Shown piece after piece: positions 1 to 64,000 of a stretch of DNA of 64,000 bases; positions within the stretch are counted from its first letter, which is position 1; each line of letters begins with the position of its first letter. The position numbers and the translations under genes are program-made. The notes below the pieces were generated by a model. The model saw only the letters and a list, made by a program, of their open reading frames with translations, did not search any database and was not told where the DNA came from. The stretch covers positions 620,001 through 684,000 of the forward strand of contig JAUFOQ010000004.1 in the NCBI GenBank assembly GCA_040285855.1, given 5' to 3'. Source of the DNA: Eukaryota sp. GEM-RC1 (lineage: Eukaryota).

Positions 1-1718
1 AAGAAGTTATCAGCAAAGGCTTCAAGCCCAAGTTCAATTACTGAATCTGGAATAACAACAGAAACCAACTCAAAATTTTGAAAAGCCTTGTTGTGAATTG
101 AGACTATTTGAACACCGTTAATACTGGACGGAATCTCAACATGTACTCCAAAGGTTTTATCATATCCCGTTAGATCTCCCAAGGTAAAGTCTACAGTGAA
201 TCCATGGGGATTCAACACCACGGTAATCAGGTTAGAAGAATCTACGTCAATTACCATTGTCTTTTCCAAGTAACTGGGATTCATAACAACTACTTCATAG
301 ACACCAGGGATCAACTCTGGTACAGAAACGGTTCCTTCGACGTCACCATCAATTATAAAAACGTCATCATGGTCCAAAACAAACTTAACTCGAGGATAAT
401 CGATTGCCACTAAGGTCTCAGCATTAAGAACATTGAATTCAAGAGAGAAGACCACCAAGTCGAGAGAAAATTGAAGGGAATCATCATCTTTGACCACGTT
501 GTAGGGAAATGATTTAGGAATATATCCATCGAGCTGTAAGTGGAAAACGTAAGAACCGTACGCCAAATTTTCAAGTACGAATCTTCCTTCTTCATCAGTA
601 AAGGTTTGAAACACCCCAAAATCAATGGAAGATAGGGAAACATTAACATTTGTAAGTGCAATTGAGTTATGTGCAATGATACCAGAAACATTGAAAACCT
701 TTGTTCTGAAGACAAACATAAACGACAGAACAAGGAGCAGAACAAGAAAGCAAATACCAGCAGCAATCGCAAGTAATTTAAAAATCTCTTGTTTCTTTAT
801 CTCTTTCTTCTTTGGTGGTCTGTCTAACAAGAGATTTGCAGAGAGTGGCTTAGGGTCTGTGGACATTTCAATAAGAGTTATACCATCGAGTAAAGAGGAA
901 TCGCACTCCAAGGAAGAGTCTGGAGAAGAATTGAAGCGATCAAGTAGTGTTTGGAAGTCAGAGTCAGAGGACTCAGCCAAAGGAGTTGATTTGAGACTTT
1001 TTTGCGCAAACTCAGATACTGTTACAGCAATGTAGTTCTGAGTGACAGGGTCAAAAGTAACAGCCTGGCCATCTTGGTTTGTAAGAAGAAGAGAAACAGA
1101 AAGATCAGAGTAAGCACATTCTGCACTTTGTTCAGAGAGCTTTCGCAGAACCATTTTAAGCTGGTCACAAGGATCTTGGGGAATATCATGACCTAAGGAG
1201 CGGATTAAAGAGAGATAGTTTTGAGTAATAGCAAAGAGCAGAGGAGGTTCATCATCATCATGTGATTGATCATATTCGACCTTACAGTTGTTGCACACTA
1301 GGAGAAGCTGTTCCCTGGGGATTTCCAGCACAACCGTAGCATACGACTCTAGAAAACAGCGGTAGCAATCATAAATGAAATCTGAATTACCAGTTGTTTC
1401 AACCAGCTTTTGAACAACGGAATCAGACAAGCCAATATTGAAAACTGTAATCAGAAAAATTGTTGGGTTGTCACCTACCTGTATTTTGAGTAGCATCGGA
1501 AACAGGTTTAACTGTTAGAAACAAGGGAACCACAACAGACGCAAACCTGTTGCCTACAATCTCCTGAAGACCGTAAATTTGATCTGATAGCCATGAATGT
1601 GGAAGTGTTCCTTCAGCATCACAAAGTAACGAAATATCCTGGAGTAAGAAAAAAAAAGATGATGTCAAACCTTAGTAGAACACGTGAATCCTAGACCTGC
1701 TTTATGTTCCTCATCCAT
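1..1718 (-). CDS. BspA-like LRR membrane protein, copy A (5' part only; runs off the window start); PPDK-like N-terminus, TM helix, carboxypeptidase-regulatory-like domains
   Basis: Reverse complement closely matches 52632-54335. ATG at 1718 (MDEEHKAGLGFTCSTK) and the same two short introns as copy B. Confidence 0.85.
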
Positions 1719-1744: not shown

Positions 1745-2340
1745 GAATCTAGCCGCTAGATGCTACAAAAATGATTTTACTGAAGTTTGATTTTCCTTCT
1801 AGTTCCGGAACTTGAGGAATGGACGAATTCCCTCCCATTTGTTAAGAATCTGTCTGCTCTGATAGTGGATCAATGTCAATGCTGCCTACTGGTTAAGGTA
1901 GACTAAAACGTTTGAAAAACTAAGTTCCAGACTGATCGATCAAAACTGATCTTCTTCACTCCCATCTTCAATCAAAGGTCCTCTTCCTCACTCTCCTCAG
2001 TCTCAAGACATTGTACACAACTAATCTCAGAAGTCATTTGTTCAGATTGGCTTCTGCTGAGAACAGTTTGCTGGGTAGCCCAGCTAACTTTGCCTTCATG
2101 ATTTTATTTATATTAATTGTCCAATTGAAGTTCTTGTCACACATAGTGTTGCAGTGGTGACACTTGAGTACCACCTCACGGTTTCAATTCTGCATTTTTC
2201 TCAAATAAAAGCTTCTTTTATTCTACATGTACGTTCTTCTTCGAAATCCAAACGCTGCCTTTTTAAGTAGCAATATTACCACTTTTTCGTTCATTTCCTC
2301 TTTCTAGCCTATTGGATCTGGACATTTGGTTCCATGATCG
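1745..2340 (-). pseudogene. Relic of a Fanzor/TnpB C-terminus plus 3' non-coding region
   Basis: Minus strand reads VLKCHHCNTMCDKNFNWTINIIKIMK (CxxC plus degenerate RuvC-III). Homologous to 52105-52605, which keeps WDRD. Confidence 0.6.
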
Positions 2341-19028: not shown

Positions 19029-20774
19029 CTATGTAATAACAGTAGCCTTGTCTCTTCCAGTAAACTCCTTCATCTTACAAATATCTAGACCCCAAGAAAC
19101 AAACTCAGAAAGCAATTCCGATACATCTCCATCAAATAGACTGGAATCCTCAACGTTCCGTTCCAAATACATCCTAATTGTAGCTCCGGATGAACCAGTT
19201 CCAGATAAACGATAGACCACACGAGAACCATCAGCAAACAAGAAGAATAAACCTTGATTGTGAACAGTTGAACCATCAATAGGATCGGTATAGCTCCAAT
19301 CCCCCGCTTTTTGGAGGTGTAAGTTAAGAGGAGGGGCAATTGGAAGTCCTGAGCTAGGAAAAGAACTACAAACTTCCCTTAAGTGAGTAAAGACATTGTT
19401 GGCGTCAGAAGAAGAAACTTCTTCAAAGTCATAACGTTGAAAAACTCTTCGCTTACCAACTAAACCCCACATCTCCTTGCAAAGATCATATGGCAAAACC
19501 TTTCTTTTCTGCTCCATCGTCTTCTTACAACAAATGGTGACGATGGCGAGTACAGCCCAGATTCCGTCTTTTTCTCTAATATGGGATGAACTAGTACCAA
19601 AAGACTCTTCACCACAGATCTGAGCATAATCCTCGTCTAATAGGGGAACCAAAGTACTTCCACCCAGTGGGAGTACAGTAAGACTCTAATCCCCAGGTAC
19701 TCCGCCACGTCATCAAGTGCTGCACTAGTGGGCATAGACCTAGCTACACCAGTGAGTTTATGTTTCGAAAACTGAGGAAGACAGTCATGGAACAAGGCAA
19801 TTAGAGCAACTGAATCACAAGGAGAAATGAACTTTCCCTTGCTGAGAATCATGTTTCTATCAGCATCTCCATCAGCAGCAGCTCCAATGTCATAACTCTC
19901 ATCAACTAAAACCCTCTTAACTAAATCCTTTGCCCAGACTAGGTTAGGATCGGGATGTCCTCCTCCAAAGTCTGGGAGAGGAGTGGTGTTGAGGAGACTT
20001 TCTTTGGATATTCCCAGTTCAGAGAAGATTCTGTCAGCGTAAGGACCAGCTATTCCGTACATTGCGTCGAAACAAATAGAAATGTTGTAATCAGCAATGA
20101 CTGTTTTAAGGAAATCAAAATCATAGAGCTCTCTCATTAACTCCACATAGTCATCAACGCCATCAAAAACAGTGACTCTGAGGGGAGCGCCATCGATGGA
20201 ATAGTCCTGAGAGGAGAGAGTTGAAGGATCGATGATGAGGTCTTCAACAATCCTGTATTCCTCGACCTGTTTAGAGTAGTTGGAGATGGACTCAGTGACA
20301 GAAAGAGGAGCAGGACCACCATTCTCGGTATTCCACTTGATGCCAAGATCTTCAGTTGGACCCCCTGGATTGTGTGAAGCAGTTAAAAGGAGGCCTCCGA
20401 ACAGTTTGTGGGTTCGGATGAAGGCAGAGCAAGCGGGGGTGGAGAGGTAGCCGTTTTTAGCGACATAAATAGTAGGAGTTGAGATCTGATCAGAAGCTGT
20501 GAGATTAGCAGCAGCTATCTTGACAGCTAGTTGAAGAACATGGTCAGCGTAATAGCGACCGTCTCCTCTGGAATTAGAAATGTGGAAAACCAAACCCAAT
20601 GACGATACTCGATCCAGTAGTACGTGCTTGTAATGCAGAGCAGGAAAAGATGGCTTGGATAAAGTTCTCGCAGTAGTTTGGTTGTTTGAAAATAGAAACC
20701 TTCTTCCTCAGACCAGATGTTCCGGGTTTCTGGTCAGAGAAAGAAGTAGTAGGTTTAGTAACAATAGAGAGCAT
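19029..20774 (-). CDS. PGM: Phosphoglucomutase
   Basis: DQKPGTSGLRKKV; IGGDGRY across a 28-nt intron (20568-20595); TASHNPGG, DGDADRN, GEESFGT, RLSGTGS, terminal TVIT*. Two indels at ~19645-19690. Confidence 0.95.
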
Positions 20775-21091
20775 GAGGAGTAACGATAAGGCTTAAAGGG
20801 GTACCAAAAAGAAAGTCTAGGTCAACTTGTCAATCAATCAACACGACATTCTTGGACAAATAACCACACAACAACTCTACGTCAACAACACCACTGTGTC
20901 ACTCAACAGCGTTTTACACAGGTAAAAACTGAGAGCTGGGGCTTCTGGGATCTTCAACCCAAACTACTGATTTGATGCTTAAGGTTAAATGATGATGATG
21001 GTTTTGACTAGCACAATAGTAGACCCTACAATGTGTACAATAATAACTTTTAGATACAAATACTAAACACTACAATAAACAATTAAAACAG

Positions 21092-22402
21092 TCAACGCAA
21101 AGGACCATCCCAAATAGCATCTAGGAACAGATCAATTAAGCTACTGGTGGATGTTCCAATCGCAATGGACAGTGAAACGAGATTAATAGCGTACTCCCGA
21201 TCCTTTTGATGAACCTTCTTACTAGACATTAACAAGTGGAAAGTGTTGATGTAGGAGCAACCACCTAGGAGACCTGTCCAAAGAGCCAGACCAAGCAATC
21301 CATAAACATTGATAAATCGAAGATAATCTTGAGCCAAGTACAGGCAAAGTTGATGAATTGAAACATTGTTACTGTTCCAATATAAGGAATCTGTACAACG
21401 GAGAGAGAACTTCGTGAGATCAACACGGTTATCTGGTAACATAACTGCACAGCTTCATAAAAGTTAGCCACCAAATACTCACTTGCGTCCTTAGTAGTAA
21501 GAGCATTCTTAGCTAGAGTTGTAATGATGGTGTACTCCAGGACATAGACCATACTTAAGTTAAAAGCCTCGTATTTGATCAGCTTTAGCACCCTCCAAAG
21601 GCGAGCAAAGCCTCCATCTAATACCTCAGCCTTGTCTGCTTCTACTTTGTCTAACAGCGCAGTGGTATCATCAACTGAAACATTCAGAGGGAGATTATCC
21701 TTGAGACTATCTAAAAGTTTGGTCTGATTGACGACTTTTCTTTTGGGATTTGAATCACCCAAAAGATACGTCTGTTTACAATAAATAAACCCTTCCTTAA
21801 TGTAAGGTAATGGGGGAGAAATAAGAACAAAAAGGAGAACAAATAGACTAGGACAAATGGTAAAAGTCCAGCAAATACTGAAGAATTGGGAATCTTGTAG
21901 AAACTGCAAATAAGATAGAAAGAAGCTCCAAAGACTCCAGAAAGACCAGTACCACTTCCCCACGCAGAAACTAGCTTATAGTCCGAAGGAAATTGTTTAA
22001 GGAAACAGAGGATGACTGACTCGCCAAGTGCTGAACTAATACCAACGAGGATAACACAGCCAAGCATGAACCAAAAGTTGAAATGTTCAACATAAAACAT
22101 ACCGATCAAGCCGAGAGTCATGGAAGTAGCATTTGTTATGATTCTAGATGTGTAGGACAGTGAATCAAGACACCAAGTATTGATAATTCTGACAAGAATA
22201 CCGATAGAAACATTACACATGATAATGGCGCCCAGAAGATTATCTTTTCAAAGGACTCAGCAAGAGACTTGGCAGCAGAAATGACAACACAGTACTGAAG
22301 TTAACACGCAACATGGACGCATACAGGCAAATTGTTGATCATACCGACCAAAAGAAGCCCAATCCATGTTCGTTTATATGGAAAGGTGTTTGGATATCCC
22401 AT
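21092..22402 (-). CDS. CLN3: CLN3/Battenin (Btn1) family transporter, copy 1
   Basis: GMINNLP|YCVVISAA across a 30-nt intron, SSALGES, AWGSGTGLSG, LCYQITVLISRSS, GLLGGCSYINTF. Several indels. Confidence 0.85.
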
Positions 22403-31299: not shown

Positions 31300-31560
31300 T
31301 TCTATTTTGTCTAAGTTGTTTGGAGGCAACTACTTTTCGGAATTAGGTAGTTCGTTTGATAATTTGTTTTAATAGTGTTTATTTATTTGTACTTATCTTA
31401 TTATGTGTTTTTCTCCGCACATAAATCCGTTTTTTTAATAGATACTTGTGTCACTTTCATTACTTGTTATGGACTTAACCAAATATGGCCGGGTTTCACC
31501 AGCCAGCTAACAAAAATAAAGCTAATTTCTACACAGATACTCCACTCTCTCATCATTACC
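31300..31560 (-). ncRNA. Candidate Fanzor omegaRNA and element right end
   Basis: Directly 3' of the Fanzor stop. Hairpins tggctgg-tgaaac-ccggcca (31486-31505) and ttatgtg-N10-cacataa (31401-31424). Boundaries not determinable from one copy. Confidence 0.4.
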
Positions 31561-34500
31561 ACTCATCCAGTGTTCGAACATGTTCATCATGTTCAAACAA
31601 GCCATCTTGTTTCGATTCCAATACACTTGACTGGGCACTGTGTGCCCTTTCTTTTCTCCCTTCAATCGTTTCGTGACTTCTCCCAGACAATGTTCACTCT
31701 TACACTCTAGTAAGCCATGAGGGTGGATCCATTCTCTTTTCTCTCTTGATTTGGGCTTTGGGTTGACAACCTCAATAGAAGTTTCAAAAACATCTTCATG
31801 ACATTCTGGACACTTGGACGAAGTGTATCTCTCATCATTCATAACTGTTAAAAAACCGTTTCTCTGAAAGAATGAAGTCCAAGTCTTAGTTCTGGATGGT
31901 GGACTGTGTTTTAAGTTGGTGATTGGCTTCTGACCTAAATCACCAATACTTAGTACAATTTTGTCACGACTACCGAAAGTTTTTACAATGCTGTTAACCA
32001 ATTTAGACTCTGTCTTTTGCTTATGGACATGATTTTGGATTTTGTGAATCCTCCATATATGCAAAGCATAGAAGTCTTTAGTTGCATTGTAGTGAATGCA
32101 TTTAGCCAGAATAAACTTTCTAAATTTATTGTAATTAACAGTTTTAGAATTCTGTTCTTCACTTAACCAAGTGTTCCATTTCTCAATTTTCATTGTCACA
32201 GTTATTGGAATATCATCACCTGCTCTCACGGTAGTAGTACCTGATCTCCTTCTAACAAGGTACTGGTGGATTCTTTTATGGATTCTTTTCTTCTTCAATC
32301 GTAAGAAGTTGTATTTCTTCAGAGGATTTTGAGTTTCCCTATTTGATTTAGATGCGAGTTGTAGCATATCTCTCTTTCCAATGTCCACATAAACCATTTG
32401 TTTAGAAATAAAATCAGTCCTATCACATTCATTGAAATATTGTACTTTTACTGAAGCTTTACTTGAATCAGGTTTACATTTCATTCCTTTCAAATCCTTT
32501 CTCACAAATTGAAAACAAATCGAAATTCCATCAGTTACAGCATAGTTGTTGAATTCAAAATTGGCTTTGTGAAAACTTCTGTCATCATAGTTAAACCATC
32601 TTTTCCAGTAATCCTGTTGTTGAGAATGGGTCAAGTTTTTAATCTGATCAGCAGACAAGTAATTAGTCACTTTTGAATGTAAAGGACCAATCTTCTTATC
32701 ATTATTCTTATATCCAAAACAGTGCTTAGCCAGTCCCCAAAGAGTTCTGGTATCTATTGGGAAAAAACAGGGAGTATTCTCTAAACTTAGAGGAATTACA
32801 TTAAACAACTTAGCACCCTTTGATTCCAAGTAATCTGAGATCTGAAGAGAATTTCTAAGAAAATGAAGTGGTTACTCCTGAACTGTGTAAAGTAAATTAT
32901 GGACGTCTACAGTTTCATTGTCGTTTGTAGTGATTGAAGTAGGAAATATGATGTTAAATCTTTGAAGTAATTCTGGAATTTTATCAGCCATGAGAGAATT
33001 GATCTGTTCAAATATTAACATACTGAAATCATCATTAAAAACTTTAGAAACTTCATCAATAAACTTAACATTTTCAGGGTGAGTGGCAGAGTTAAAAGAA
33101 TTAATATACTGTAAGGCTTCATCTCTAGGTCGATACAAAATCTGGTCTTTCAACATCTTTAATCGAAATCTGAAGTAACTAGTGAACTTTTGAGCTTCAC
33201 GACCTGTTAGTCCTGCAAGTTCTGGACCTAAAACCAAATTACGTTTCTGCTTCATTCCCTTTTCAAACTCTTTCTTACCCATTACCATTACTGTATTGAT
33301 AAATCTTTTAATGTACAACTCATAATTGCGGCGAATATTTAGTTCAAACGCAGGCCACATTTCATACTGAGTAGTGTATTCAAAAGCTCTACTGATGTGA
33401 TCAAAATCCAGTTCTGGTATATGACATTGGCCAAATGTATCAGTAACACAGTGCTTATATCCGAGGTAGTTTGAATTGACAGTATAGATTCCTTCACCAG
33501 CAACAAAATCACGAAGATCTGCATCAATTGTTGATATAGGATAATTGTTGTAAATTTTGAATCCATGAACTTCAGATGAAAGATTTCTAATTGAAAGCAC
33601 TGTATGATAAAACAACTTGTAATCAAACTTAGACAAATCTTGTCCAAGACGATAGCGAGCCAACAGATATTCTTTAACACACATTGTAGTCTGTTGTCTT
33701 AAAGCATTGTAGAACTGAGATCCTAAAAGCATGGCATCTTGAACTTCTTGATGTTTTACCACACTAAGAACTGAAGTTTTAATGGAAGCCAATGATTGAA
33801 AAACAATTTTGTCTTTTTGAAATAAAATAAACAATTTAAACGCCAGAATTGAATCATGAAGACAGTAGTTGATTAGAGTTTTCATTCTTTTATCATTTCT
33901 TAAACAATCAACTGGGAGGAAGTGGTCCAAGTCTTTATCCAATTTCAATTTGGGTTCAGAAAGTAAATTCCAAGATAAATTGGCTAGACTACAACCATAC
34001 TTGAGACCAATATGCTTTTTTGCAAACAAGAAGGTATCCAAAACTGTAAAACAATTGTGATCTTTTATGATATCCAGCCATCTACTTTGTAAAGGTAACT
34101 CAACTGGATTTGGATTTGTTAAAAGAGGTCAAGAGCCCACATTCTATTGTCAATAATGGGCAAATCAAAATTGAAAATATTATGGCCAATAAAAGCATTT
34201 GGTTTATATTGACTAACAATGTTAGCGTACGTAACCAATAATTCGTTTTCATTTGGGAAGTCCAAAAGATCTAATTGAAAAGCTGGTGTTTCTGATTCAC
34301 TGAATTTGATTTTATAATTGTAGTCAGTGTAAAGGACGATTGAGTTGTCAAATTGTAATTCACCATTGGATTGCAATTTTGCAATAATGACAGAGATCAT
34401 GATGATTTGTTGATCTGCGAGAAAATCAAGGTCGTGAGCTTCCTTCTCAAAATCATTCATTAACAATCTTCTCTGTTTCAAAGACTCTTTTTCCGTTCTA

Positions 34501-34598
34501 CGATGTTCATTCAATTCTTTGTTCACTCGTGTAGGAATTCTCTCATTGATATTTCTTGTTTCAATATCAATTATAAAAACTGTAGGAAGGGGAGTCAT
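31522..34598 (-). CDS. DEDDy 3'-5' exonuclease-Fanzor (TnpB-like) fusion, ~1025 aa after repairing one indel (~34120) and one in-frame TAA (32872-32874)
   Basis: ExoI IIDIET, ExoII GHNIFNFDLP, ExoIII YCLHD. Then, in the same ORF, a Fanzor-like N-terminus (SIKTSVLSVVK...KEYLL), KLFNVIPL, TDGISICF, RuvC-I VDIGKRD, IGDLG, DERYTSSKCPEC, HGLLECKSEHC and RuvC-III WNRNKMACLNM. Confidence 0.85.
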
Positions 34599-35912
34599 CG
34601 ACAACAGTATCAGTTGCAATGTCAATAAATGGAATTCTTGATTCTTTTTCCTTTTTTCCTTTAACAACTGGAATTTCCTCAAATTCATGCAAAGAGTCAG
34701 TTGAACCTTCAACTACATGCGAACTTTGACATTCTTCGTCAGTTTTTGGAAATTTTGTACAACCACTAGATTGATCATACAGTCTCTGTTGACGTTTAGA
34801 ACCTTGTTCTTGAGGACGATGAATTACTGACGAATGACACTTTTTTGGTTTCCGTTCTAGCCGTCGTGCTTTAGAGTTTTTGACGGATGTGTCAGATGAA
34901 GAAGAATAACTTGACGAAATTTTATTAGTTACTTCTAGAGTTTTACGACGAGATGACTTACGTGTAGTACTTTCAGAAGGGTCAGAAGATTTATTTCTTT
35001 TCCAGCAGGTTGATTAGTTTTGGGACATTGTGTCTTTCTTCTACCAGTGAGCAACAGATCGATGTTGACCAGTGTGAGTGTCAATGATGAGATTCAAAAT
35101 CCTTTTCCTCATTTCTAGAGCATCATATTCATTGAAAAGTCGAACTTGAAGTAGAATTACGTTGATATCTAGTGACGCTTGTTCAAATTCAACAAATTTA
35201 CTCATGTACTCTAAAATAAAAGGTCCACAGTCACCTTGTGTTTGGTGTTGAGTAACGAAAAGCCTTCCTAAATAATGATAATTGAAAGGAAAAAACACAC
35301 GCTCATGAAATTGTCTAATAACATCTTCGCAATGACCTAAAGTATCTAAAACTTTTGATGTTGATTTTGAGTAAACATTGGATCAAGGGAATAGTATCTT
35401 TTTCTCTTAATATCACAAATCAGCAGAGTCCAGTGAGTAGCTTCATTATTAAAGATACCATCGTTTATTGGAATAAACAAATATTGTTTGGTTGGTGGTC
35501 TGGAAGAATTCATCAAATCTAAGGTTTCTTGAAATAGTTTGTGAAGATGCCAACGATCTCTTTCTTCTTCAGCCAAATTGTCCTCTGTAATTGCAAGTGA
35601 CAATGCTTCACACGAGAGATATGGCCATTTAACACTATGTTCAGTAATGTACTGTCCATAAAAGTCTACAATAGTGGTCCATAACCAACTATGAGGTAGC
35701 AAAGAATCAATATTGGAATGATTTTCAATTAGATCGGGTCCAGGATTAGACTCAATGTCCCCGTCCATAGTCAAATCACGGAGAAATTGTGATGACTGGA
35801 GATTTATTTTGGATTTTGAAATAGCACAACAAGAACCACTACAGTATGGAGTACTATAACAAAAAAGAAATAGAAGAGATTTGAGGATCGAGGGACCCAT
35901 GAAAATCTTCAT
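34567..35912 (-). CDS. Leader ending in a 2A motif + Ulp1/SENP8-like (C48) cysteine protease + Ser/Lys/Arg-rich region; frame-disrupted
   Basis: LRDLTMDGDIESNPGP; protease motifs SWLWTTIVDFY, FIPIND...THWTLL (His), YSLDP (Asp), QHQTQGDCGPFI (Gln/Cys). Indels near 35350 and 35000-35070. Confidence 0.8.
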
Positions 35913-36078
35913 AAAGACCTGACGGTCTTGATTGAAAAGACAAAAACAAAAAAAGAAATAGAAGAGATTTGAGGATCGAGGGACCCATGAAAATCTTCAT
36001 AAAGACCTGACGGTCTTGAGTGAAAAGACAACAAACCCAGCAAAGGAGTGATCTGAGGATCAAAAGACCCATTGAAGG
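35858..36078. repeat. 88-bp tandem repeat: two near-identical units plus a diverged third
   Basis: gatttgaggatcgagggacccatgaaa at 35878 and 35966, variant at 36050. The two full units contain the inverted repeat aagacc-tgac-ggtctt. Confidence 0.85.
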
Positions 36079-47278: not shown

Positions 47279-47505
47279 CTTTATTTTCTTATAAACTTTT
47301 ACTCAGTCTGTATGGATATCTCTTTGAATACATTTCAGTGGTTTTAAAGTCGACCTGTATACAGAAAAACTACACTAGTAAATAGGAAGATCTAAATTGT
47401 CAAAGAAGTTTAGTTCAAATTTGCTTTTGGAATCATTTTGAAGTCGTACCTGACCTGAACATTCCTCTACTATAGAAGTAGTTGTTTGTTCGCTTGTTCT
47501 CACTC

Positions 47506-47555
47506 CTTGTTTCTGTTCTACTTGTTTCTGTTCTACTTGTTTCTGTTCTACTTGT
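47506..47555 (+). repeat. 15-bp tandem repeat (cttgtttctgttcta) x3
   Basis: Read directly, just upstream of the XPG-like ATG. Confidence 0.85.
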
Positions 47556-47565
47556 CTTTCTTCTC

Positions 47566-49584
47566 ATGGGAGTTAAAGCTTTCTGGTCCTTGATAGATTC
47601 CACGGCTGAAGGTCTTTCCCTTTCTCATTTCGCACACTCTGTCTTCATTATAGATGCTTCATTCTGGCTTGTTCAACTAGACTCCATCAATACTTCAAAG
47701 GAGAAAACCTTGTACATTCTCATTTCTCGTTTGTTAAAACTAATGCATTATGACATCCACCCAGTCTTTGTCTTTGACGGACCCTCTTCAAGACTCAAGA
47801 GTGACACTTTAAAACTCCGTCGTAAACGTCGTCACCTATCTCTTCATAAACTAGAGGTTGCTGCACAAAACTACTTACTTTCATCTATTGAAGATCATGC
47901 TGCGTCATCAGCTCAAATTTCCACGTCATCAGATATACTTTCATGTACTAATTCTACAGACAAATCTCAACAGTTTTCAGCTAAACAATTTTTCTAATAA
48001 GTTGTCTTCTGTTACTGACTTTGGTGTTTCTTCACCACCAGTTAAGCAAAAGAAGACAAGTTTCGAGATTCCTATTAGTACAGATCCAATCACTGAGGAT
48101 GACGTTCTTGATTTCTTGAAATCGCCTCTTTCCGAAAGAGAAGAGTTCAGTTTTAATCAAGACGTACCTTCTTCTTCTGTTGATGACGTCATGAGTTCTG
48201 CAGTTGATCAACATCCTCCTTTTCACTCATCTCCTACTACTTCATCCACTCCTGTTGCTTCCCCTTCTCAGTCTGATGACGTGGAAGTTGAGGTTGACGA
48301 CTCATCTCCATCTGATTCTTGTTTTGAAAAGAAGTTTCCTTCCGATCTTCTCCAATTAATAGTATTGAAGTTACCTCAAAACCCCACTTCAATATTGAAG
48401 TAGAATCAGACAATGTGGAAAAACAAGACAGTCTTTTTCAAAGTGACTGTCAAGTTGTTGATGTTGATAAAGTTGATCAAGTTACAGATGAAAGAGTTGT
48501 AAAGTCAGTAGAAAATGAATCTGACCAAGAGTTAGAAGTCGAATATAAAGACGGACTCTCAGAAGTGGATTTCATTGAGTTTATTGAAGAAGAAGAAGAA
48601 TTTCTTGAAGAAAACAAAGAGGAGGAAAAGAAAGAGCTACCTAAAGTTCTTCATCAATCACTTATTTCAAGTTATTTCAAGAGAACGCCAGAGACTTCTA
48701 AAGACTTCTCTGGACTTCGGGAGGTTGATTTTGACCTTGCTTCCACTTCTGAAATTTTGAGTCACTTGTGTAAAAAATTTGGTTTTCTCAAGGTGAATGC
48801 TGTTGCTGATGCAGAGGCTGAATGTGTTAATATCGAAAATATTTTAAATTCTATGGAAAATTTCAATAGAAGAGTTTATGTAATTTCTGACGATTCAGAT
48901 TCCTTCTTTTCGGCGGCAAGAATGTCATTCGAATGGACTTTGCCAATGAAAGTTGTGTTGCTTATAATATTGATCGAATTTTAAATTATTTAAATTTAAA
49001 ATTTGATGAATTATTGTTGTTTCCTATACTTGTTTCTTCTGATTTTTCGATTGGCATTGGCAACTGTTCCAAGTTTGTGGCTCTTCTATGTCTTGCAGTG
49101 CTCAAAATATTTAAACAATTTCAAAATTTGAACACTGATTTAGTTTTTGATGATCTCTATTCTTTAAAAAAGTTGATTTCTGATTCATCTAAAATATTTG
49201 AAATTATTGAACATTCTAAAGGCATGTCGATTTCGTCTAAGAAAGTTCTTAAGGAGTTCCTAAATAGAAGTACAAGACTTATTGTTCCAGAAGATTTTCC
49301 TTCAATCCAAGCTTTTCAATATTTTAAAAATCCGCAAGGAGCTGTTTCTATTGTTGAAACGGATAATTTTAATTTTTCCCATATGATAAGTTTGAATTGT
49401 TTATCGAAAAAACTTAACTTTATTCAAATCTAAGGCTTTGGAGATGTTATCTAATTGCATAAACTCTTCATATGTCTCTGACAGATCACCATTGAGCTCT
49501 ACTGAATCATCTACTGTTTCGAAAAAGGAAAGTGGAGTCTTTCAACATATACTTAAAGTCCTACAGAAGTACAATCAAAAATGA
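47566..49584 (+). CDS. XPG/Rad2-family structure-specific nuclease; several indels
   Basis: N-domain MGVKAFW...IIDASFWL...PVFVFDG...LKSDTL..RR; acidic spacer; I-domain DAEAEC...ISDDSDS and SDFSIGIGNC (H3TH-like). Confidence 0.8.
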
Positions 49585-52104: not shown

Positions 52105-52605
52105 GGAAACATGGAGCCAAATGTCCAAATCTGGATAGGCCTAGAAAGAAGATAAGAAGAAGAAGAACTTGAGAAAGGAGCTGAAGGGAAACCGTGGGGT
52201 TTGCTCAAGTGTCAGCACTACAACACTATGTGGGACAGGGATTTCAATTGGACAACCAATATAAAGGAAATCATGAAGGTAAAAATAACTGGGAAGCCCA
52301 GGCCAACTATTCTCAGCAGAAGCTTATCTGAACAAATGATTTCTGAGATTAGTTGTGGACAAGGTCTTGAGACTGTGGAGAATGAGGAAGAGGTCCTTTG
52401 ATTGAAGATGAAAGTGAAGAAGATCAGTTTTGATCGATCAGTCTGAAACTTAGTTCTGCAAACTGTTTAGTCTACCTTAACCAGTAGGCAGCATCTAGCA
52501 TTGATTCACTATCAGAACAGACATATTCCCAAAAAAGGGAGGAAATACGTGCATTGAGGAATGTAGATCAAACTCCAGAATGATTTTACTGAGATCTTAG
52601 CATCT
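52105..52605 (+). pseudogene. Relic of a Fanzor C-terminus (second family) plus 3' non-coding region
   Basis: KPWGLLKCQHYNTMWDRDFNWTTNIKEIM...GKPRPTILSRS: zinc-finger half, RuvC-III WxRD, and a G..RP..L.R tail as seen in Fanzor C-termini. Confidence 0.7.
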
Positions 52606-52631: not shown

Positions 52632-55600
52632 ATGTATGAGGAACATAAAGCGGGTCTAGGATTCACGTGTTCCACTAAGGTTCAACATCATCTTGTTTCT
52701 TACTCCAGGATATTTCGTTACTTTGTGATGCTGAAGAAACACTTCCACATCCTCAACTGTCCGATCAAGTTTACGAGCTTCAGGAGATTGTAGGCAACAG
52801 GTTTGCGTCTATTATAGTTCCCTTGTTTCTAACAGTTAAACCTGTTTCCGATTCTACTCAAAATACAGGTAGGTGACAACCCAACAATTTTTCTGACTGC
52901 AGTTTTCAATATTGGCTTGTCTGATTCCGTTGTTCAAAAGCTGGTTGAAACAACTGGTAATTCAGATTTCATTTATGATTGCTACCGCTATTTTCTAGAG
53001 TCGTATGCTACGGTTGTGCTGGAAATCCCCAGGGAACAGCTTCTCCTAGTGTGCAACAACTGTAAGGCCGAATATGATCAATCACACGATGGTGATGAAC
53101 CTCCTCTGCTCTTTTCTATTACTCAAAACTATCTCTCTTTAATCCGCTCCTTAGGTCATGATATTCCCCAAGATCCTTGTGACCAGCTTAAAATGGTTGT
53201 TCAAAAGCTCTCTGAACAAAGTGCAGAATGTGCTTACTCTGATCTTTCTGTTTCTCTTCTTCTTACAAACCAAGATGGGCAGGCTGTTACTTTTGACCCT
53301 GTCACTCAGAACTACATTGCTGTAACAGTATCTGAGTTTGCGAGTCTCAAATCTACTCCTTTGGCTGAGTCCTCTGACTCTGACTTCCAAACACTACTTG
53401 ATCGCTTCAATTCTTCTCCAGACTCTTCCTTGGAGTGCGATTCCTCTTTACTCGATGGTATAACTCTTATTGAAATGTCCACAGACCCTAAGCCACTCTC
53501 TGCAAATCTCTTGTTAGACAGACCACCAAAGAAGAAAGAGATAAAGAAACAAGAGATTTTTAAATTACTTGCGATTGCTGCTGGTATTTGCTTACTTGTT
53601 CTGCTCCTTGTTCTGTCGTTTATGTTTGTCTTCAGAACAAAGGTTTTCAATGTTTCTGGTATCATAACACATAACTCAATTGCACTTACAAATGTTAATG
53701 TTTCCCTATCTTCCATTGATTTTGGGATGTTTCAAACCTTTACTGATGAAGAAGGAAGATTCGTACTTGAAAATTTGGCGTACGGTTCTTACGTTTTCCA
53801 CTTACAGCTCGATGGATATATTCCTAAATCATTTCCTTACAACGTGGTCAAAGATGATGATGCCCTTCAATTTTCTCTGGACTTGGTGGTCTTCTCTCTT
53901 GAATTCAATGTTCTAGATGCTGAGACCTTATTGGCAATCGATTATCCTCGAGTTAAGTTTGTTTTGGACCATGATGACGTTTTTATAATTGATGGTGACA
54001 TCAATGGAACCGTTTCTGTACCAGAGTTGATCCCTGGTGTCTATGAAGTAGTTGTTATGCATCCCAGTTACTTGGAAAAGACAATGGTAATTGACGTAGA
54101 TTCTTCCAACCTGATTACTGTGGTGTTGAATCCCCATGGATTCACTGTAGACTTTACCTTGGGAGATCTAACGGGATATGATAAAACCTTTGGAGTACAT
54201 GTTGAGATTCCGTCCAGTATTAACGGTGTTCAAATAGTCTCAATTCACAACAAGGCTTTTCAAAATTTTGAGTTGGTTTCTGTTGTTATTCCAGATTCAG
54301 TAATTGAACTTGGGCTTGAAGCCTTTGCTGATAACATCTTGGAGAACGTTACTATTGGAACCAGTGTTAATGTCATTGGCATTGAATGCTTTCGAAACAA
54401 CTCTTTGAAATCCATTGTGATCCCCGATAGTGTTGAATCTATTAATGCATCAGCATTTTCCAATAACAAACTGGAAACTGTTGTTCTTGGAAGTAGTTTG
54501 GAAATCATTCAGAGCAGTGTTTTTAAAGACAATCACATCACGTCATTGACTATTCCTGATGTTGTTTCACGAATCGAGCGGTCAGCGTTTGAGTCTAATA
54601 GCATAGTAAACCTTACTCTGGGAGGTGGATTGGAATTCATTGGTGAATCAGCTTTTGCTCTCAACTTTTTATCTTCCCTCTCGATCAATGCCTCAAGAGT
54701 AGGTGAGAACGCTTTTTATGGCAATATTATCACAGAGCTAGATTTTGGTTGTGGGGTTCGAGTTATTGGTGATAGTGCCTTTGCAAACAATCAAATAACG
54801 TCACTCACTTTTGATGATGGAGTTACTGTTATTGGAAAACATGCCTTTGAACAAAATTTCATAAGTCATGTTATTTTTCCAAACACCCTTTTGACTATTG
54901 ACGAGTCTGCTTTTGGAGTATAACGGCATGTCCACCGTTGAGTTTAACCCCACTTTAAATGAAATCAGATCAGCAGCTTTCCGAAACAACCAGCTTCTAG
55001 AAGTAATTATTCCCGACTCTGTCACCGTTCTTGGAACATCCGTCTTCGAATCCAACAATTTGACTTCTGTTACGCTGGGTGCTAATTTGACTGTCATCAG
55101 TCACTCTTTGTTCCGGTCTAATTATCTTGTTGATGTTTCAATTCCTGATAATGTTCAAGTAGTTCAATCCTTTGCATTCCAGAATAATCTTCTTGTGTCT
55201 GTTAATTTATCTATTAATCTAAAGGAAATTGGGAAATATGCCTTTGAGTCTAATAGCATAGTAAACCTTACTCTGGGAGGTGGATTGGAATTCATTGGTG
55301 AATCAGCTTTTGCTCTCAATTGTTTATCTTCCCTCTCGATCAATGCCTCAAGTGTAGGTGAGAACGCTTTTTATGGCAATATGATCACAGACCTGGATTT
55401 TGGTTGTGGGGTTCGAATTATTGGTGATAGTGCCTTTGCAAACAATCAAATAACGTCACTCACTTTTGATGATGGAGTTACTGTTATCGGAAAACATGCC
55501 TTTGAGCAAAATTTCATAAGTCATGTTATTTTTCCAAACACCCTTTTGACTATTGACGAGTCTGCTTTTGAGTATAACGGTATGTCCACCGTTGAGTTTA

Positions 55601-58600
55601 ACCCTACTTTAAATGAAATCAGATCAGCAGCTTTCCGAAACAACCAGCTTCTAGAAGTAATTATTCCCGACTCTGTCACCGTTCTTGGAACATCCGTCTT
55701 CGAATCCAACAATTTGACTTCTGTTACGCTAGGTGATAATTTGACTGTCATCAGTCACTCTTTGTTCCGGTCTAATTATCTTGTTGATGTTTCAATTCCT
55801 GATACTGTTCAAGTAGTTCAATCATTTGCATTCCAGGATAATCTTCTTGTGTCTGTTGATTTATCTGTTAATCTGAAGGAAATTGGGGAATATGCATTTG
55901 AGTCTAATAGCATAGTAAACCTTACTCTGGGAGATGGATTGGAATTCATTGGTGAATCAGCTTTTGCTCTCAATTGTTTATCTTCCCTCTTGATCAATGC
56001 CTCAAGTGTGGGTGAGAACGCTTTTTATGGCAATATGATCACAGACCTGGATTTTGGTTGTGGGGTTCGAGTTATTGGTGATGGTGCCTTTGCAAACAAT
56101 CAAATAACGTCACTCACTTTTGATGATGGAGTTACTGTTATCGGAAAACATGCCTTTGAGCAAAATTTCATAAGTCATGCTAATTTTCCAAACACCCTTT
56201 TGACTATCGACGAGTCTGCTTTTGAGTATAACGGTATGTCCACCGTTGAGTTTAACCCTACTTTAAATGAAATCAGATCAGCAGCTTTCCGAAACAACCA
56301 GCTTCTAGAAGTAATTATTCCCGACTCTGTCACCGTTCTTGGAACATCCGTCTTCGAATCCAACAATTTGACTTCTGTTACGTTAGGTGATAATTTGACT
56401 GTCATCAGTCACTCTTTGTTCCGGTCTAATTATCTTGTTGATGTTTCAATTCCTGATACTGTTCAAGTAGTTCAATCCTTTGCATTCCAGGATAATCTTC
56501 TTGTGTCTGTTGGTTTATCTGTTAATCTGAAGGAAATTGGGAAATATGCATTTGAGTCTAATAGCATAGTAAACCTTACTCTGGGAGGTGGATTGGAATT
56601 CATTGGTGAATCAGCTTTTGCTCTCAACTGTTTATCTTCCCTCTTGATCAATGCCTCAAGTGTAGGTGAGAACGCTTTTTATGGCAATATGCTAACAGAC
56701 CTGGATTTTGGTTGTGGGGTTCGAGTTATCGGTGATAGTGCCTTTGCAAACAATCAAATAACTTCACTCACTTTTGATGATGGAGTTACTGTTATTGGAA
56801 AACATGCCTTTGAGCAAAATTTCAATAAGTCATGTTATTTTTCCAAACACCCTTTTGACTATTGACGAGTCTGCTTTTGAGTATAACGGCATGTCCACCG
56901 TTGAGTTTAACCCCACTTTAAATGAAATCAGATCAGCAGCTTTCCGAAACAACCAGCTTCTAGAAGTAATTATTCCCGACTCTGTCACAGTACTTGGAAC
57001 ATCCGTCTTCGAATCCAACAATTTGACTTCTGTTACGCTAGGTGTTAATTTGACTGTCATCAGTCACTCTTTGTTCCGGTCTAATTATCTTGTTGATGTT
57101 TCAATTCCTGATACTGTTCAAGTAGTTCAATCCTTTGCATTCCAGGATAATCTTCTTTTGTCTGTTGATTTATCTATTAATCTGAAGGAAATTGGGAAAT
57201 ATGCGTTTGAGTCTAATAGCATAGTAAACCTTACTCTGGGAGGTGGATTGGAATTCATTGGTGAATCAGCTTTTGCTCTCAACTTTTTGTCTTCCCTCTT
57301 GATCAATGCCTCAAGTGTAGGTGAGAACGCTTTTTATGGCAATATGATCACAGACCTGGATTTTGGTTGTGGGGTTCGAGTTATTGGTGATAGTGCCTTT
57401 GCAAACAATCAAATAACGTCACTCACTTTTGATGATGGAGTTACTTTTATTGGAAAGCATGCCTTTGAGCAAAATTTCATAAGTCATGTCATATTTCCAA
57501 ACACCCTTTTGACTATTGACGAGTCTGCTTTTGAGTATAACGGCATGTCCACCGTTCAGTTTAACCCCACTTTAAATGAAATCAGATCAGCAGCTTTCCG
57601 AAACAACCAGCTTCTAGAAGTAATTATTCCCGACTCTGTCACAGTACTTGGAACATCCGTCTTCGAATCCAACAATTTGACTTCTGTTACGTTAGGTGAT
57701 AATTTGACTGTCATCAGTCACTCTTTGTTCCGGTCTAATTATCTTGTTGATGTTTCAATTCCTGATACTGTTCAAGTAGTTCAATCATTTGCATTCCAGG
57801 ATAATCTTCTTGTGTCTGTTAATTTATCTATTAATCTGAAGGAAATTGGGGAATATGCCTTTGAGTCTAATAGCATAGTAAACCTTACTCTGGGAGGTGG
57901 ATTGGAATTCATTGGTGAATCAGCTTTTGCTCTCAATTGTTTATCTTCCCTCTTAATCAATGCCTCAAGTGTGGGTGAGAACGCTTTTTATGGCAATATG
58001 ATCACAGACCTGGATTTTCGTTGTGGGGTTCGAGTTATTGGTGATAGTGCCTTTGCAAACAATCAAATAACGTCACTCACTTTTGATGATGGAGTTACTT
58101 TTATTGGAAAGCATGCCTTTGAGCAAAATTTCATAAGTCATGTCATATTTCCAAACACCCTTTTGACTATTGACGAGTCTGCTTTTGAGTATAACGGCAT
58201 GTCCACCGTTCAGTTTAACCCCACTTTAAATGAAATCAGATCAGCAGCTTTCCGAAACAACCAGCTTCTAGAAGTAATTATTCCCGACTCTGTCACAGTA
58301 CTTGGAACATCCGTCTTCGAATCCAACAATTTGACTTCTGTTACGTTAGGTGATAATTTGACTGTCATCAGTCACTCTTTGTTCCGGTCTAATTATCTTG
58401 TTGATGTTTCAATTCCTGATACTGTTCAAGTAGTTCAATCATTTGCATTCCAGGATAATCTTCTTGTGTCTGTTAATTTATCTATTAATCTGAAGGAAAT
58501 TGGGGAATATGCCTTTGAGTCTAATAGCATAGTAAACCTTACTCTGGGAGGTGGATTGGAATTCATTGGTGAATCAGCTTTTGCTCTCAATTGTTTATCT

Positions 58601-59568
58601 TCCCTCTTAATCAATGCCTCAAGTGTGGGTGAGAACGCTTTTTATGGCAATATGATCACAGACCTGGATTTTGGTTGTGGGGTTCGAGTTATTGGTCATA
58701 GTGCCTTTGCAAACAATCAAATAACGTCACTGACTTTTGATGATGGAGTTACTGTTATCGGAAAACATGCCTTTGAGCAAAATTTCATAAGTCACGTCAT
58801 ATTTCCAAACACCCTTTTGACTATTGACGAGTCTGCCTTTGAGTATAACGGCATGTCCACCGTTGAGTTTAACCCCACTTTAAATGAAATCAGATCAGCA
58901 GCTTTCCGAAACAACCAGCTTCTAGAAGTAATTATTCCCGACTCTGTCACAGTACTTGGAACATCCGTCTTCGAATCCAACAATTTGACTTCTGTTACGT
59001 TAGGTGATAATTTGACTGTCATCAGTCACTCTTTGTTCCGGTCTAATTATCTTGTTGATGTTTCAATTCCTGATACTGTTCAAGTAGTTCAATCATTTGC
59101 ATTCCAGAATAATCTTCTTGTGTCTGTTGATTTATCTATTAATCTGAAGGAAATTGGGGAATATGCATTTGCAAACAATGAATTATCATCAATTGACTTC
59201 CCTGACAATATTACTGTTATTGGTGAAAGTGCTTTCAAAAACAACGTGTTGACTACAGTTACGATTCCACCTAATCTTCAAGTTATTGAAACGTCAGTTT
59301 TTGAAAACAATAAGATATCAACAATTGATTTTGGTTCCGTCTCCATTATTGGAGAGCGAGCTTTTTTCAAAACCATATGATGACCCTGTATTTTCCCAGT
59401 ACGTTAACAGAATTTAAGAATGAGGCGTTTGGAGAATCAGTTGCGAACATAGATATTGGTGATAATGTCATTTGTGCAGTTGGTGCCTTGAGGGGAAACT
59501 TTTGTGAAGCTTACAGTATCCATGGTAAAGGTTGGTATTACAGAATGTTGAATACTTGGAACTACTAG
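52632..59568 (+). CDS. BspA-like LRR (LRR_5) type II membrane protein, copy B, ~2300 aa; PPDK-like N-terminus
   Basis: ATG at 52632; introns 52680-52708 and 52869-52902 restore the frame. TM LLAIAAGICLLVLLLVLSFMFVF follows the basic KKKEIKK; TDEEGRFVLENLAYGSY beta-sandwich repeats; IPDSVxxIGxxAF repeats. Indels at ~54915, ~56824 and ~59365. Confidence 0.9.
54591..59170 (+). repeat. Intragenic tandem array of 7 x 654 bp (218 aa, ~10 LRRs each)
   Basis: Unit starts (gagtctaatagcatagtaaacc) at 54591, 55246, 55900, 56554, 57209, 57863 and 58517. Confidence 0.95.
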
Positions 59569-63381: not shown

Positions 63382-63639
63382 GTCAAAAGGTTCATCCGTT
63401 CTTCTTGTATCTGTTGTTGTTCTGTATTTTTTGTATACACCGTTTTGCATCTCTTTTACTGATCTCATCGTCATTTGTAATAAAGTGATGTTGTTTGTAC
63501 TCTTTCCATTTTCTGTTCAAGGATGAAATCACATCTTACCAATTCCAACATCGTACTGTATATACCTATCTCGAGTTATGGAAGTTCAACAGAACTGCTT
63601 TCAGAAGATCAAAAAAACATGGCATAAAAGGTTTTTCAA

Positions 63640-63712
63640 TGCTCCAACAGAGATTCGAACTCTGGACCTTTCCCTTACTAAAGGAATGCTCTACCAACTG
63701 AGCCATTGGAGC
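63640..63712 (-). tRNA. tRNA-Thr(AGT)
   Basis: Full cloverleaf GCTCCAA-TG-GCTC AGTTGGTA GAGC-A-TTCCT TTAGTAA GGGAA-AGGTC-CAGAG TTCGAAT CTCTG-TTGGAGC-A, with T-runs downstream. Confidence 0.95.
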
Positions 63713-64000
63713 ACATAAATACGGTACCGGTATAGTGTTGGCGAAAAAGATGGTAGCAGAAAAAGATGGGGAAATTGAACTACATGTATACTAACTAGTA
63801 AAAATCCACCATTATTTTTCCCACCATCCATTTCTTTGGGTCCTTTTTATGTCTATTAACTTTAATTAGTTTTAGATAAAGTTGTTTATAAATGTAACAT
63901 TAAAAAAGAAATGAAGAAAACACCTGACTGCATTATGGTGAAATTTTCATTTTGACCGAAAATATATGGTGGCGAAAAAAGATGGGGAAATTGTTCTTAA

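What the first reader, a model, noticed from the sequence alone, without database searches (positions are those of the whole stretch)
52632..53225. Predicted cytoplasmic domain of the BspA-like surface protein is a degenerate pyruvate phosphate dikinase N-terminal fragment
Seen after splicing: GFTCSTK...LP...LQEIVGNRFASIIVPLFLTVK...TVFNIGLSDSVVQKLVETTGNSDFIYDCYRYFLESYATVVLEI...IPQDPCDQLKMVV. Established PPDK pattern, from memory: PGFTITTE...LE...GK.FGD...PLLVSVRSGA.SMPGMMDTVLNLGLND..V..LA..TGN.RFAYDSYRRFI.M...VV.G...FPQDP..QL..AI. Order and spacing agree, but the nucleotide-binding RSG..SMPGMM segment is lost. A TM helix, two beta-sandwich domains and a long LRR array follow. Inference: a receptor-like chimera using a pseudo-enzyme piece of a glycolytic enzyme as its intracellular module. 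Both paralogs keep it open.
Basis: partly seen in the sequence, partly recalled or inferred. Interest (0 to 1): 0.78.

Follow-up and report, generated by a model that had tools for sequence, protein, structure and literature searches.

The report
Dead PPDK domain on BspA receptors
In what is likely an anaerobic, bacteria-eating skoliomonad protist, a family of membrane proteins with long leucine-rich-repeat arms begins with about 200 residues taken from the glycolytic enzyme PPDK and stripped of its catalytic parts; this piece is predicted to face the cytoplasm and likely works as a docking module rather than an enzyme.

Summary
Confirmed and extended. The gene starts at ATG 52632 and has two short introns (52680-52708, 52869-52902). 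Its first 207 residues are a degenerate pyruvate phosphate dikinase (PPDK) N-terminus: TIGR01828 E 2e-14, family profile against PDB E 2e-23, HHalign 99.8%. They cover most of subdomain NBD1 and all of NBD2. Lys22, the RSG/MPGMM loop, NBD3, the phospho-His domain and the pyruvate domain are gone, so it cannot be a dikinase. One transmembrane helix, beta-sandwich stalks and about 1,800 residues of BspA repeats follow; the junction lies inside one exon. A 93%-identical paralog sits at 1718-1 (-). Eight annotated Skoliomonas sp. GEM-RC1 genes carry the same piece, five of them with the whole architecture, and the second intron site appears shared. The helical core is as conserved as the folded ectodomains. 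Best reading: a predicted type II receptor family whose dead PPDK piece is likely a cytoplasmic docking module; its partner is unknown. Three frameshifts in the repeat array are probably assembly errors. No description was found in the literature searches.

The parts
52632..52679 (+). Exon 1; start Met lines up with the internal Met30 of PPDK, so the GGKG/Lys22 motif lies outside the gene
   Evidence: Met at this column in 9 of 9 family rows, 7-10 residues before the PPDK-like G-F position
52680..52708 (+). Intron 1 (29 nt, GT-AG, phase 0), predicted
   Evidence: the paralog has a 3-nt indel inside it and a TGA right after the donor; best of 104 open models with the GEM-RC1-only profile; similar 32-nt introns in the PP2A-B and permease genes
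52709..52868 (+). Exon 2: eroded NBD1 part; Lys60 (52838-52840) sits at the catalytic Arg92/Arg95 position
52869..52902 (+). Intron 2 (34 nt, GT-AG, phase 1), predicted
   Evidence: in the top model for both paralogs; two GEM-RC1 isoform pairs differ by an 11-residue insert at the same site
52903..53219 (+). Helical core (end of NBD1a plus NBD2 of PPDK), residues about 70-175; best conserved part
   Evidence: pLDDT 57-94 per 10-residue block over residues 71-180 of the GEM-RC1 orthologue folded without PPDK rows
53220..53315 (+). Degenerate NBD1b strands, residues 176-207, with about 15 PPDK residues deleted; end of the supported PPDK homology
53316..53564 (+). Fast-evolving linker ending in a basic cluster; no supported match to PPDK NBD3
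53565..53630 (+). Single transmembrane helix (residues about 291-312), predicted signal-anchor, N-terminus inside
   Evidence: hydropathy 3.02, 7 K/R in the 20 residues before and 2 after; nothing above 1.6 elsewhere in the whole protein
53634..54140 (+). Two CarboxypepD_reg-like beta-sandwich stalk domains
   Evidence: PF13620 E 1.4e-9, first domain; second domain, by identity to relatives
54141..59568 (+). BspA-type LRR_5 array built from a 654-nt (218-aa) unit with seven anchor copies (six units compared, 96-99% alike), plus a C-terminal cap; stop at 59566-59568; single-base frame breaks near 54915, 56824 and 59368
1..1718 (-). Paralog: same exons (introns 1670-1639 and 1478-1445), open over 550 codons, cut by the window start

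Best explanation
This is a member of a likely skoliomonad-specific family of predicted type II membrane proteins whose first 207 residues are a PPDK fragment lacking the catalytic residues and domains, and that fragment likely acts as a folded cytoplasmic docking module for a BspA-repeat receptor. Shown: the PPDK homology, the loss of Lys22, the Arg/MPGMM loop, NBD3 and both later domains, the in-exon fusion to TM, stalk and LRR, and the family. Inferred: a 5' part of a PPDK gene was joined once, in an ancestor of the family, to a short-tailed TM-stalk-LRR gene, used PPDK's internal Met30 as start, and then expanded with variable stalk number and LRR length. Predicted: the LRR arm faces outward (cell surface or food-vacuole lumen) and binds prey or other surfaces; the retained helical bundle binds a cytoplasmic partner or its own kind and so couples binding to uptake, sorting or signalling. 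The partner is unknown.
For: Homology: (prob 99.8, E 1.2e-27, 178 columns). A model built without PPDK rows finds only PPDK entries among the rows listed at Foldseek E<=0.001 (14 listed of 16 counted, best 1e-7, next unrelated row 0.17). Catalytic loss: GGKG/Lys absent in 9 of 9 rows, Arg kept in 1 of 9, MPGMM in 0 of 9, the T-G-V stretch gapped in 9 of 9; the window copy keeps 30 of 103 highly conserved PPDK columns. ATP-grasp enzymes bind ATP between two subdomains, with Lys22, Arg95 and Glu324 involved (PMC4844700, PMC5507339, passages); the second subdomain is missing here. Family: 8 GEM-RC1 genes carry the piece, 7 of 8 with the TM helix, 5 of 8 with LRR_5; one clade, 100/100. Constraint: against the six distant paralogs the core is 36-41% identical, like the stalk domains (29-37% where present) and the first LRR stretch (33-47% in the five that have it), whereas the linker is 6-23%. 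Topology: one strong helix with a basic cluster before it in 10 of 10 proteins tested and no N-terminal signal-like stretch; 1 N-glycosylation sequon before and 38 after the helix.
Against: No partner, ligand or localisation is known; 'docking' is inferred from retained structure without catalysis. One relative (GEMRC1_002727) has TM and stalks but no PPDK piece, and two GEM-RC1 isoform models start at residues 35 and 139, so the piece may be dispensable. dN/dS of the domain between the two window copies is 0.53 and not significantly below 1 (17 non-synonymous, 10 synonymous; p 0.09). The NBD1 parts fold with pLDDT under 50. This copy has three frame breaks downstream. Topology rests on hydropathy and charge, not on a dedicated predictor. 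Foldseek scores include sequence similarity, so the fold match is not fully independent.
Confidence: 0.55

Rival explanations
1. The chimera is real and expressed, but the PPDK piece is only a structural passenger: a stable soluble cap that supplied a start codon and promoter and helps set membrane orientation, with no specific partner.
For: Most conserved family columns repeat the PPDK residue, as expected if only folding is selected; a member without the piece exists; isoform models that skip it exist; domain dN/dS is not significantly below 1.
Against: It is kept in 8 of the 9 related GEM-RC1 genes found, over paths of more than 2 changes per site, while the neighbouring linker drifts. A few columns are fixed in the family but differ from the PPDK consensus (Glu102, Asp132, Leu153, His155, Ser173 in window numbering).
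Confidence: 0.25
2. The piece is a nucleotide or energy-state sensor, or it pairs in trans with the missing half of a full-length PPDK and so brings glycolytic ATP supply to the membrane.
For: It derives from the adenylate-binding domain; Lys or Arg is kept at the Arg92 position in the window pair and its closest relative (3 of 9 rows). PPDK is listed in the expression table of one Skoliomonas isolate at FPKM 1660 (PMC11316075 supplement row; the text describes these tables as the top 100 expressed genes). The N-terminal ATP-grasp subdomain fold is reused for ligand and peptide binding elsewhere (PMC2034487, passages).
Against: Lys22, the MPGMM loop, the T-G-V stretch and NBD3 are missing; 6 of 9 rows have Gln, Glu or Asn at the Arg position; NBD1 is the most eroded part.
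Confidence: 0.12
3. This particular copy is a pseudogene or yields only a truncated 742-residue product; the family is real but this locus is decaying.
For: Three frame breaks in the LRR array; the first gives a stop at 54921-54923. dN/dS between the copies is only about 0.5.
Against: Each of the first two breaks is one extra base in 1 of 7 near-identical repeat copies, and similar single-base frame changes split housekeeping genes in the same window, such as phosphoglucomutase and an XPG-like nuclease, which points to assembly error. Over 548 codons dN/dS is below 1 (p 0.026). This rival concerns the copy, not the family.
Confidence: 0.15
4. Artefact: a chance or misassembled join of a PPDK pseudogene to an LRR gene.
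For: The assembly has indel errors; splicing of this copy is predicted, not observed.
Against: The junction lies inside one 696-codon open frame, recurs in the paralog and in five GEM-RC1 models with the full architecture.
Confidence: 0.02

Closest known systems
Pyruvate phosphate dikinase (TIGR01828; PDB 1kbl, 5jvl, 1vbg)
   Same: Sequence and predicted fold of residues about 30-268: most of NBD1 (1-111, 197-243) and all of NBD2 (112-196), boundaries from PMC5371819 (passages)
   Different: No Lys22 motif, Arg replaced, MPGMM loop lost, no NBD3, phospho-His or pyruvate domain; joined to a membrane protein
BspA-like (TpLRR, Pfam LRR_5) proteins of Trichomonas, Entamoeba and Trepomonas
   Same: Long LRR_5 arrays, expanded paralog family, single-pass membrane members, proposed role in binding and uptake (PMC2843621, PMC11437800, PMC8136499, passages)
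   Different: The 193 membrane TvBspA described there have the LRR N-terminal and a C-terminal cytoplasmic tail; here the order is reversed, with an enzyme-derived N-terminal cytoplasmic part of about 290 residues and beta-sandwich stalks
PPDK-derived enzymes: rifampin phosphotransferase (PMC4844700, passages) and VadK (PMC13400623, abstract only)
   Same: Reuse of PPDK-type modules for a new role
   Different: They remain active kinases; this family keeps half of the ATP-grasp without its catalytic residues and is membrane-anchored
Enzyme-derived dead domains in membrane proteins, such as pseudokinase receptors and the esterase-like domain of neuroligin (recalled, no call)
   Same: A catalytically dead enzyme fold kept as an interaction module
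   Different: Different folds; none known to me derives from an ATP-grasp or PPDK fragment

Membership tests
Pyruvate phosphate dikinase | Homology to NBD1/NBD2 | tested here: met
Pyruvate phosphate dikinase | GGKG motif with Lys22 | tested here: not met
   the protein starts after it; absent in 9 of 9 family rows
Pyruvate phosphate dikinase | ATP-binding Arg92/Arg95 and the following RSG..MPGMM loop | tested here: not met
   Lys in the window copies, Arg in 1 of 9 rows, loop not kept in any
Pyruvate phosphate dikinase | NBD3 (residues 244-340) with the metal-binding acidic residues | tested here: not met
   profile match ends near residue 268; linker alone scores within shuffled controls
Pyruvate phosphate dikinase | Central phospho-His domain and PEP/pyruvate domain | tested here: not met
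   TM, stalk and LRR follow instead; TIGR01828 53.7 bits against a cut-off of 843
Pyruvate phosphate dikinase | Dikinase activity | not testable with these tools
   needs an enzyme assay
BspA-like LRR proteins | LRR_5 (TpLRR) repeats | tested here: met
   PF13306 above the curated cut-off in all three LRR-bearing frames, E 1e-41 to 2e-162
BspA-like LRR proteins | TvBspA membrane layout: LRR first, C-terminal cytoplasmic tail | tested here: not met
   TM precedes the LRR; no second hydrophobic segment (compare)
BspA-like LRR proteins | Surface exposure and binding of a ligand | not testable with these tools
   needs localisation and binding assays
Type II single-pass membrane protein | One TM helix, no N-terminal signal peptide, basic residues on the N-terminal side | tested here: met
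   hydropathy and charge count in 10 of 10 proteins; simple scan, no dedicated predictor

The most novel reading that the evidence does not exclude
Skoliomonads, among the most mitochondrion-reduced free-living eukaryotes, built a receptor family whose cytoplasmic half-ATP-grasp docks onto the cell's own PPDK or reads adenylate levels, tying prey capture at the membrane directly to glycolytic energy supply.
Probability: 0.12. Interest if true: 0.85.

Novelty: new variant of a known kind. Interest (0 to 1): 0.62.

Why it matters
It is a clear case of a core glycolytic enzyme being cut down and reused as a non-catalytic domain in an expanded membrane-protein family, and it defines a domain that Pfam misses (no PPDK_N hit in the window protein or in any of the 8 GEM-RC1 carriers). 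BspA-like proteins are mostly discussed as parasite adhesins; a reversed-topology family with a large cytoplasmic module in free-living bacterivores gives a testable handle on what BspA repeats do outside hosts. It also suggests that PPDK's helical NBD2, which has no assigned catalytic role in the passages read, can serve on its own as an interaction surface.

Tried and rejected
No whole genome is held for this window, so the host PPDK gene, its introns and the family size in this organism could not be examined. Sequencing-run search: none was listed, no RNA holder listed. Word-seeded homolog searches with the window protein found no family member (0 of 1,483 candidates; 2 hits, stalk-domain proteins). 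NBD3 remnant in the linker: suggested by eye and by a permissive alignment to PPDK residue 314, but the linker alone scored 12.7 against column-shuffled controls of mean 13.1 and maximum 18.8, and 1.2 against a shuffled maximum of 5.9; rejected as unsupported. Alternative 20-nt intron 52717-52736: scored slightly higher on the PPDK profile (79.0 against 76.4 bits) but needs read-through of intron 1, which a TGA closes in the paralog; rejected. Pattern scans for the family elsewhere: viral contigs 0 of 32 stretches; metagenomes 4 of 76 and GTDB genomes 13 of 90, all 17 ordinary PPDK genes or parts of them. ESM Atlas: unnamed clusters first, PPDK_N at 0.88, a lead only. The VIA-align match (1vbg, Z 10.9, rmsd 3.6 over 154 residues, next Z 5.5) came from a model whose alignment held 6 PPDK rows of 15; the same search on the PPDK-free model could not be run. 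Donor of the fragment: the tree held no metamonad PPDK, so it cannot be placed. Expression table look-up: its gene numbers do not match the GenBank locus numbers, uninformative. Earlier findings of the scan: nothing.

Full report
Setting. The window is eukaryotic (kinase, phosphoglucomutase, PP2A-B, XPG-like and other genes with short introns), with GC 0.31-0.41 per 2 kb. The closest relatives of the protein are all from Eukaryota sp. GEM-RC1, the Skoliomonas isolate of PMC11316075, whose gene models were built with RNA-seq mapping and PASA (passage). I infer that the window comes from a skoliomonad or a close relative. The best match is 44% identical, so it is probably another species. Skoliomonads are bacterivorous anaerobes with food vacuoles and a long cytopharynx (PMC11603281, passages).

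Gene model. ATG 52632, intron 52680-52708, intron 52869-52902, then one frame to 54923. Of 104 open models with up to two GT-AG introns, this one ranks first with a profile made only of GEM-RC1 proteins and third with a profile of 28 PPDKs; in the paralog the equivalent model ranks first of 32 with both profiles (the PPDKs were themselves picked by the family profile). The paralog at 1718-1 (-) is 93% identical in DNA, has a 3-nt indel inside intron 1 and a TGA directly after its donor, which excludes read-through. Two GEM-RC1 genes have isoform pairs that differ by an 11-residue insert just before the V-L-N-I-G motif, as a retained 33-nt intron at the site of intron 2 would give; this is an inference from proteins, as no GEM-RC1 DNA was seen. 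All seven GEM-RC1 proteins with a full N-terminus start at the same column as the window protein.

PPDK homology. The unspliced third exon matches TIGR01828 at E 1.9e-14 and 11 PDB sequences, all PPDK. The family profile reaches E 1.9e-23. Profile-profile comparison gives probability 99.8 over 178 columns, to about PPDK residue 268, and extends to the start Met when the spliced N-terminus is included. By the boundaries in PMC5371819 (passages) this is most of NBD1 and all of NBD2. The orthologue P0004 folded with family rows only has a confident helical core (residues 71-180) and low confidence elsewhere; Foldseek lists 14 rows at E<=0.001 (16 counted), all PPDK entries, best 1e-7. A model that had PPDK rows in its alignment matched maize PPDK at Z 10.9; that match is not independent.

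Catalytic loss. Of 103 columns conserved in at least 9 of 10 PPDKs up to residue 285, the window copy keeps 30, and 22 are kept in at least 7 of 9 family rows. Kept are the N-[IL]-G, Y-x-x-Y-R-x-F and P-x-D-P-x-x-Q-L motifs. Lost are GGKG (9 of 9 rows), the Arg (kept in 1 of 9; Lys in the two window copies), MPGMM (all), about 15 residues of the helix after NBD2, and the T-G-V stretch (9 of 9; that it holds the ATP-contacting Thr253 is recalled). Lys22, Arg95 and Glu324 take part in ATP binding, and ATP is held between two subdomains (PMC4844700 and PMC5507339, passages). NBD3 and both later domains are absent. A remnant of NBD3 in the linker was tested and not supported. The piece therefore cannot be a dikinase and is unlikely to bind ATP alone.

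Architecture and topology. One hydrophobic helix (residues about 291-312) with 7 K/R before and 2 after; the same pattern holds in 10 of 10 proteins tested, none with an N-terminal signal-like stretch. Read with X at the three breaks the protein has 2,291 residues, no second helix, 1 sequon before and 38 after the helix. Two stalk domains follow, then LRR_5 repeats built from a 654-nt unit (seven anchor copies; six units compared, 96-99% alike). The fusion point lies inside exon 3, so it does not depend on the splice model. The 193 membrane BspA proteins described for Trichomonas vaginalis have the opposite layout (PMC2843621, passages).

Family. Eight GEM-RC1 genes carry the PPDK-like piece (008257, 004725, 007946, 007271, 012776, 001369, 002866, 007490). 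Seven have the TM helix and five continue into LRR_5; two models end shortly after the helix and one is a 133-residue fragment. A ninth, 002727, has TM and stalks but begins in the linker. In a tree of 35 rows (9 family, 26 PPDK; the 133-residue fragment left out) the family is one clade (100/100) on a long stem, and the window pair groups with 008257 (97/91), so the family began to diversify before these organisms split, if they are indeed different species. No metamonad PPDK was in the tree. One Skoliomonas isolate lists a highly expressed PPDK (supplement row), so a host donor is plausible but untested. Scans of viral, metagenome and prokaryote collections returned only ordinary PPDK genes.

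Selection. Against the six distant paralogs the core is 36-41% identical, similar to the stalk and LRR parts, while the linker is 6-23% and the first 71 residues 8-21% by local alignment. Between the two window copies dN/dS is 0.53 for the domain (p 0.09) and 0.51 over 548 codons (p 0.026). The core looks maintained as a folded unit; the recent-copy test alone is weak.

Frame breaks. Extra single bases near 54915 and 56824 each occur in 1 of 7 repeat copies, and a third break lies in a T run near 59368. Similar single-base frame changes split phosphoglucomutase, an XPG-like gene and one CLN3-like copy in this window (judged by eye), so assembly error is the likelier cause. Pseudogene status of this copy is not excluded.

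Mechanism. Shown: a dead PPDK fragment fused in frame to TM, stalks and BspA repeats, in a family. Predicted: N-terminus in the cytoplasm. Inferred: the LRR arm binds prey or other surfaces and the helical bundle docks a partner (0.55). Rivals: structural passenger (0.25), nucleotide sensor or partner of full-length PPDK (0.12). Against the docking reading: one member lacks the piece, and two GEM-RC1 isoform models start at residues 35 and 139.

Literature. Searches: BspA with pyruvate phosphate dikinase (5 papers, listing only, none on a fusion by title or abstract start); Skoliomonas (11 papers, 9 listed); PPDK with pseudoenzyme (1, unrelated); PPDK, LRR, fusion, transmembrane, protist (0); a general inactive-enzyme receptor query (0). 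PMC11316075 has no mention of PPDK, BspA or leucine-rich in its main text and one PPDK row in the five supplements that could be searched; one picture file and the large supplementary PDF could not be read and may bear on this. Seen: PMC11316075 abstract, sections 6 and 11, passages and supplement searches; PMC5371819 passages and section 5; passages of PMC5507339, PMC2843621, PMC11437800, PMC8136499, PMC11603281, PMC2034487 and PMC4844700; abstract of PMC13400623. Subscription papers are not covered.

Verdict. A real, apparently undescribed chimeric family: a new variant of BspA-like membrane proteins with an enzyme-derived dead domain. It is not a PPDK. Interest 0.62.

Noticed in passing
window 31522-34712 (-): Fanzor1-like ORF (31522-32871; PDB Parasitella Fanzor1 E 7e-16, Spizellomyces E 1.4e-15) whose last RuvC-like motif reads WNRN where the PDB match has WNRD. 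It lies in frame behind a single stop with a 418-aa ORF, preceded by a DNA_pol_B_exo1 ORF (34119-34712, E 2e-14) and a Ulp1 protease ORF (35346-35996): possibly one large mobile element.
   Followed up: partly
window 52169-52530 (+) and about 1870-2204 (-): The stretch upstream of both paralogs is conserved and holds a short Cys/His-containing frame that by eye resembles the end of a TnpB/Fanzor protein; Pfam and PDB gave no hit.
   Followed up: partly
window 9698-11461 (-): Amino-acid permease (APC) followed by a weak PTS EIIA_2 match (E 0.003), a bacterial-type architecture and a possible lateral transfer.
   Followed up: no
window 19029-20900 (-), 47482-49433 (+), 21265-22247 (-): Phosphoglucomutase, an XPG-like gene and one of two CLN3-like copies are split by single-base frame changes, suggesting indel errors in this assembly.
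   Followed up: partly
GEM-RC1 protein P0009 (GEMRC1_002727): Same TM and stalk layout but a short N-terminal tail that resembles the linker; it may show the pre-fusion form or a later loss.
   Followed up: partly
proteins P0188, P0189, P0192, P0196: Proteins of about 1,400 aa with PPDK_N and the mobile His domain at the C-terminus and a long N-terminal region without Pfam match.
   Followed up: no
window 63639-63713 (-): tRNA-Thr(AGT).
   Followed up: no
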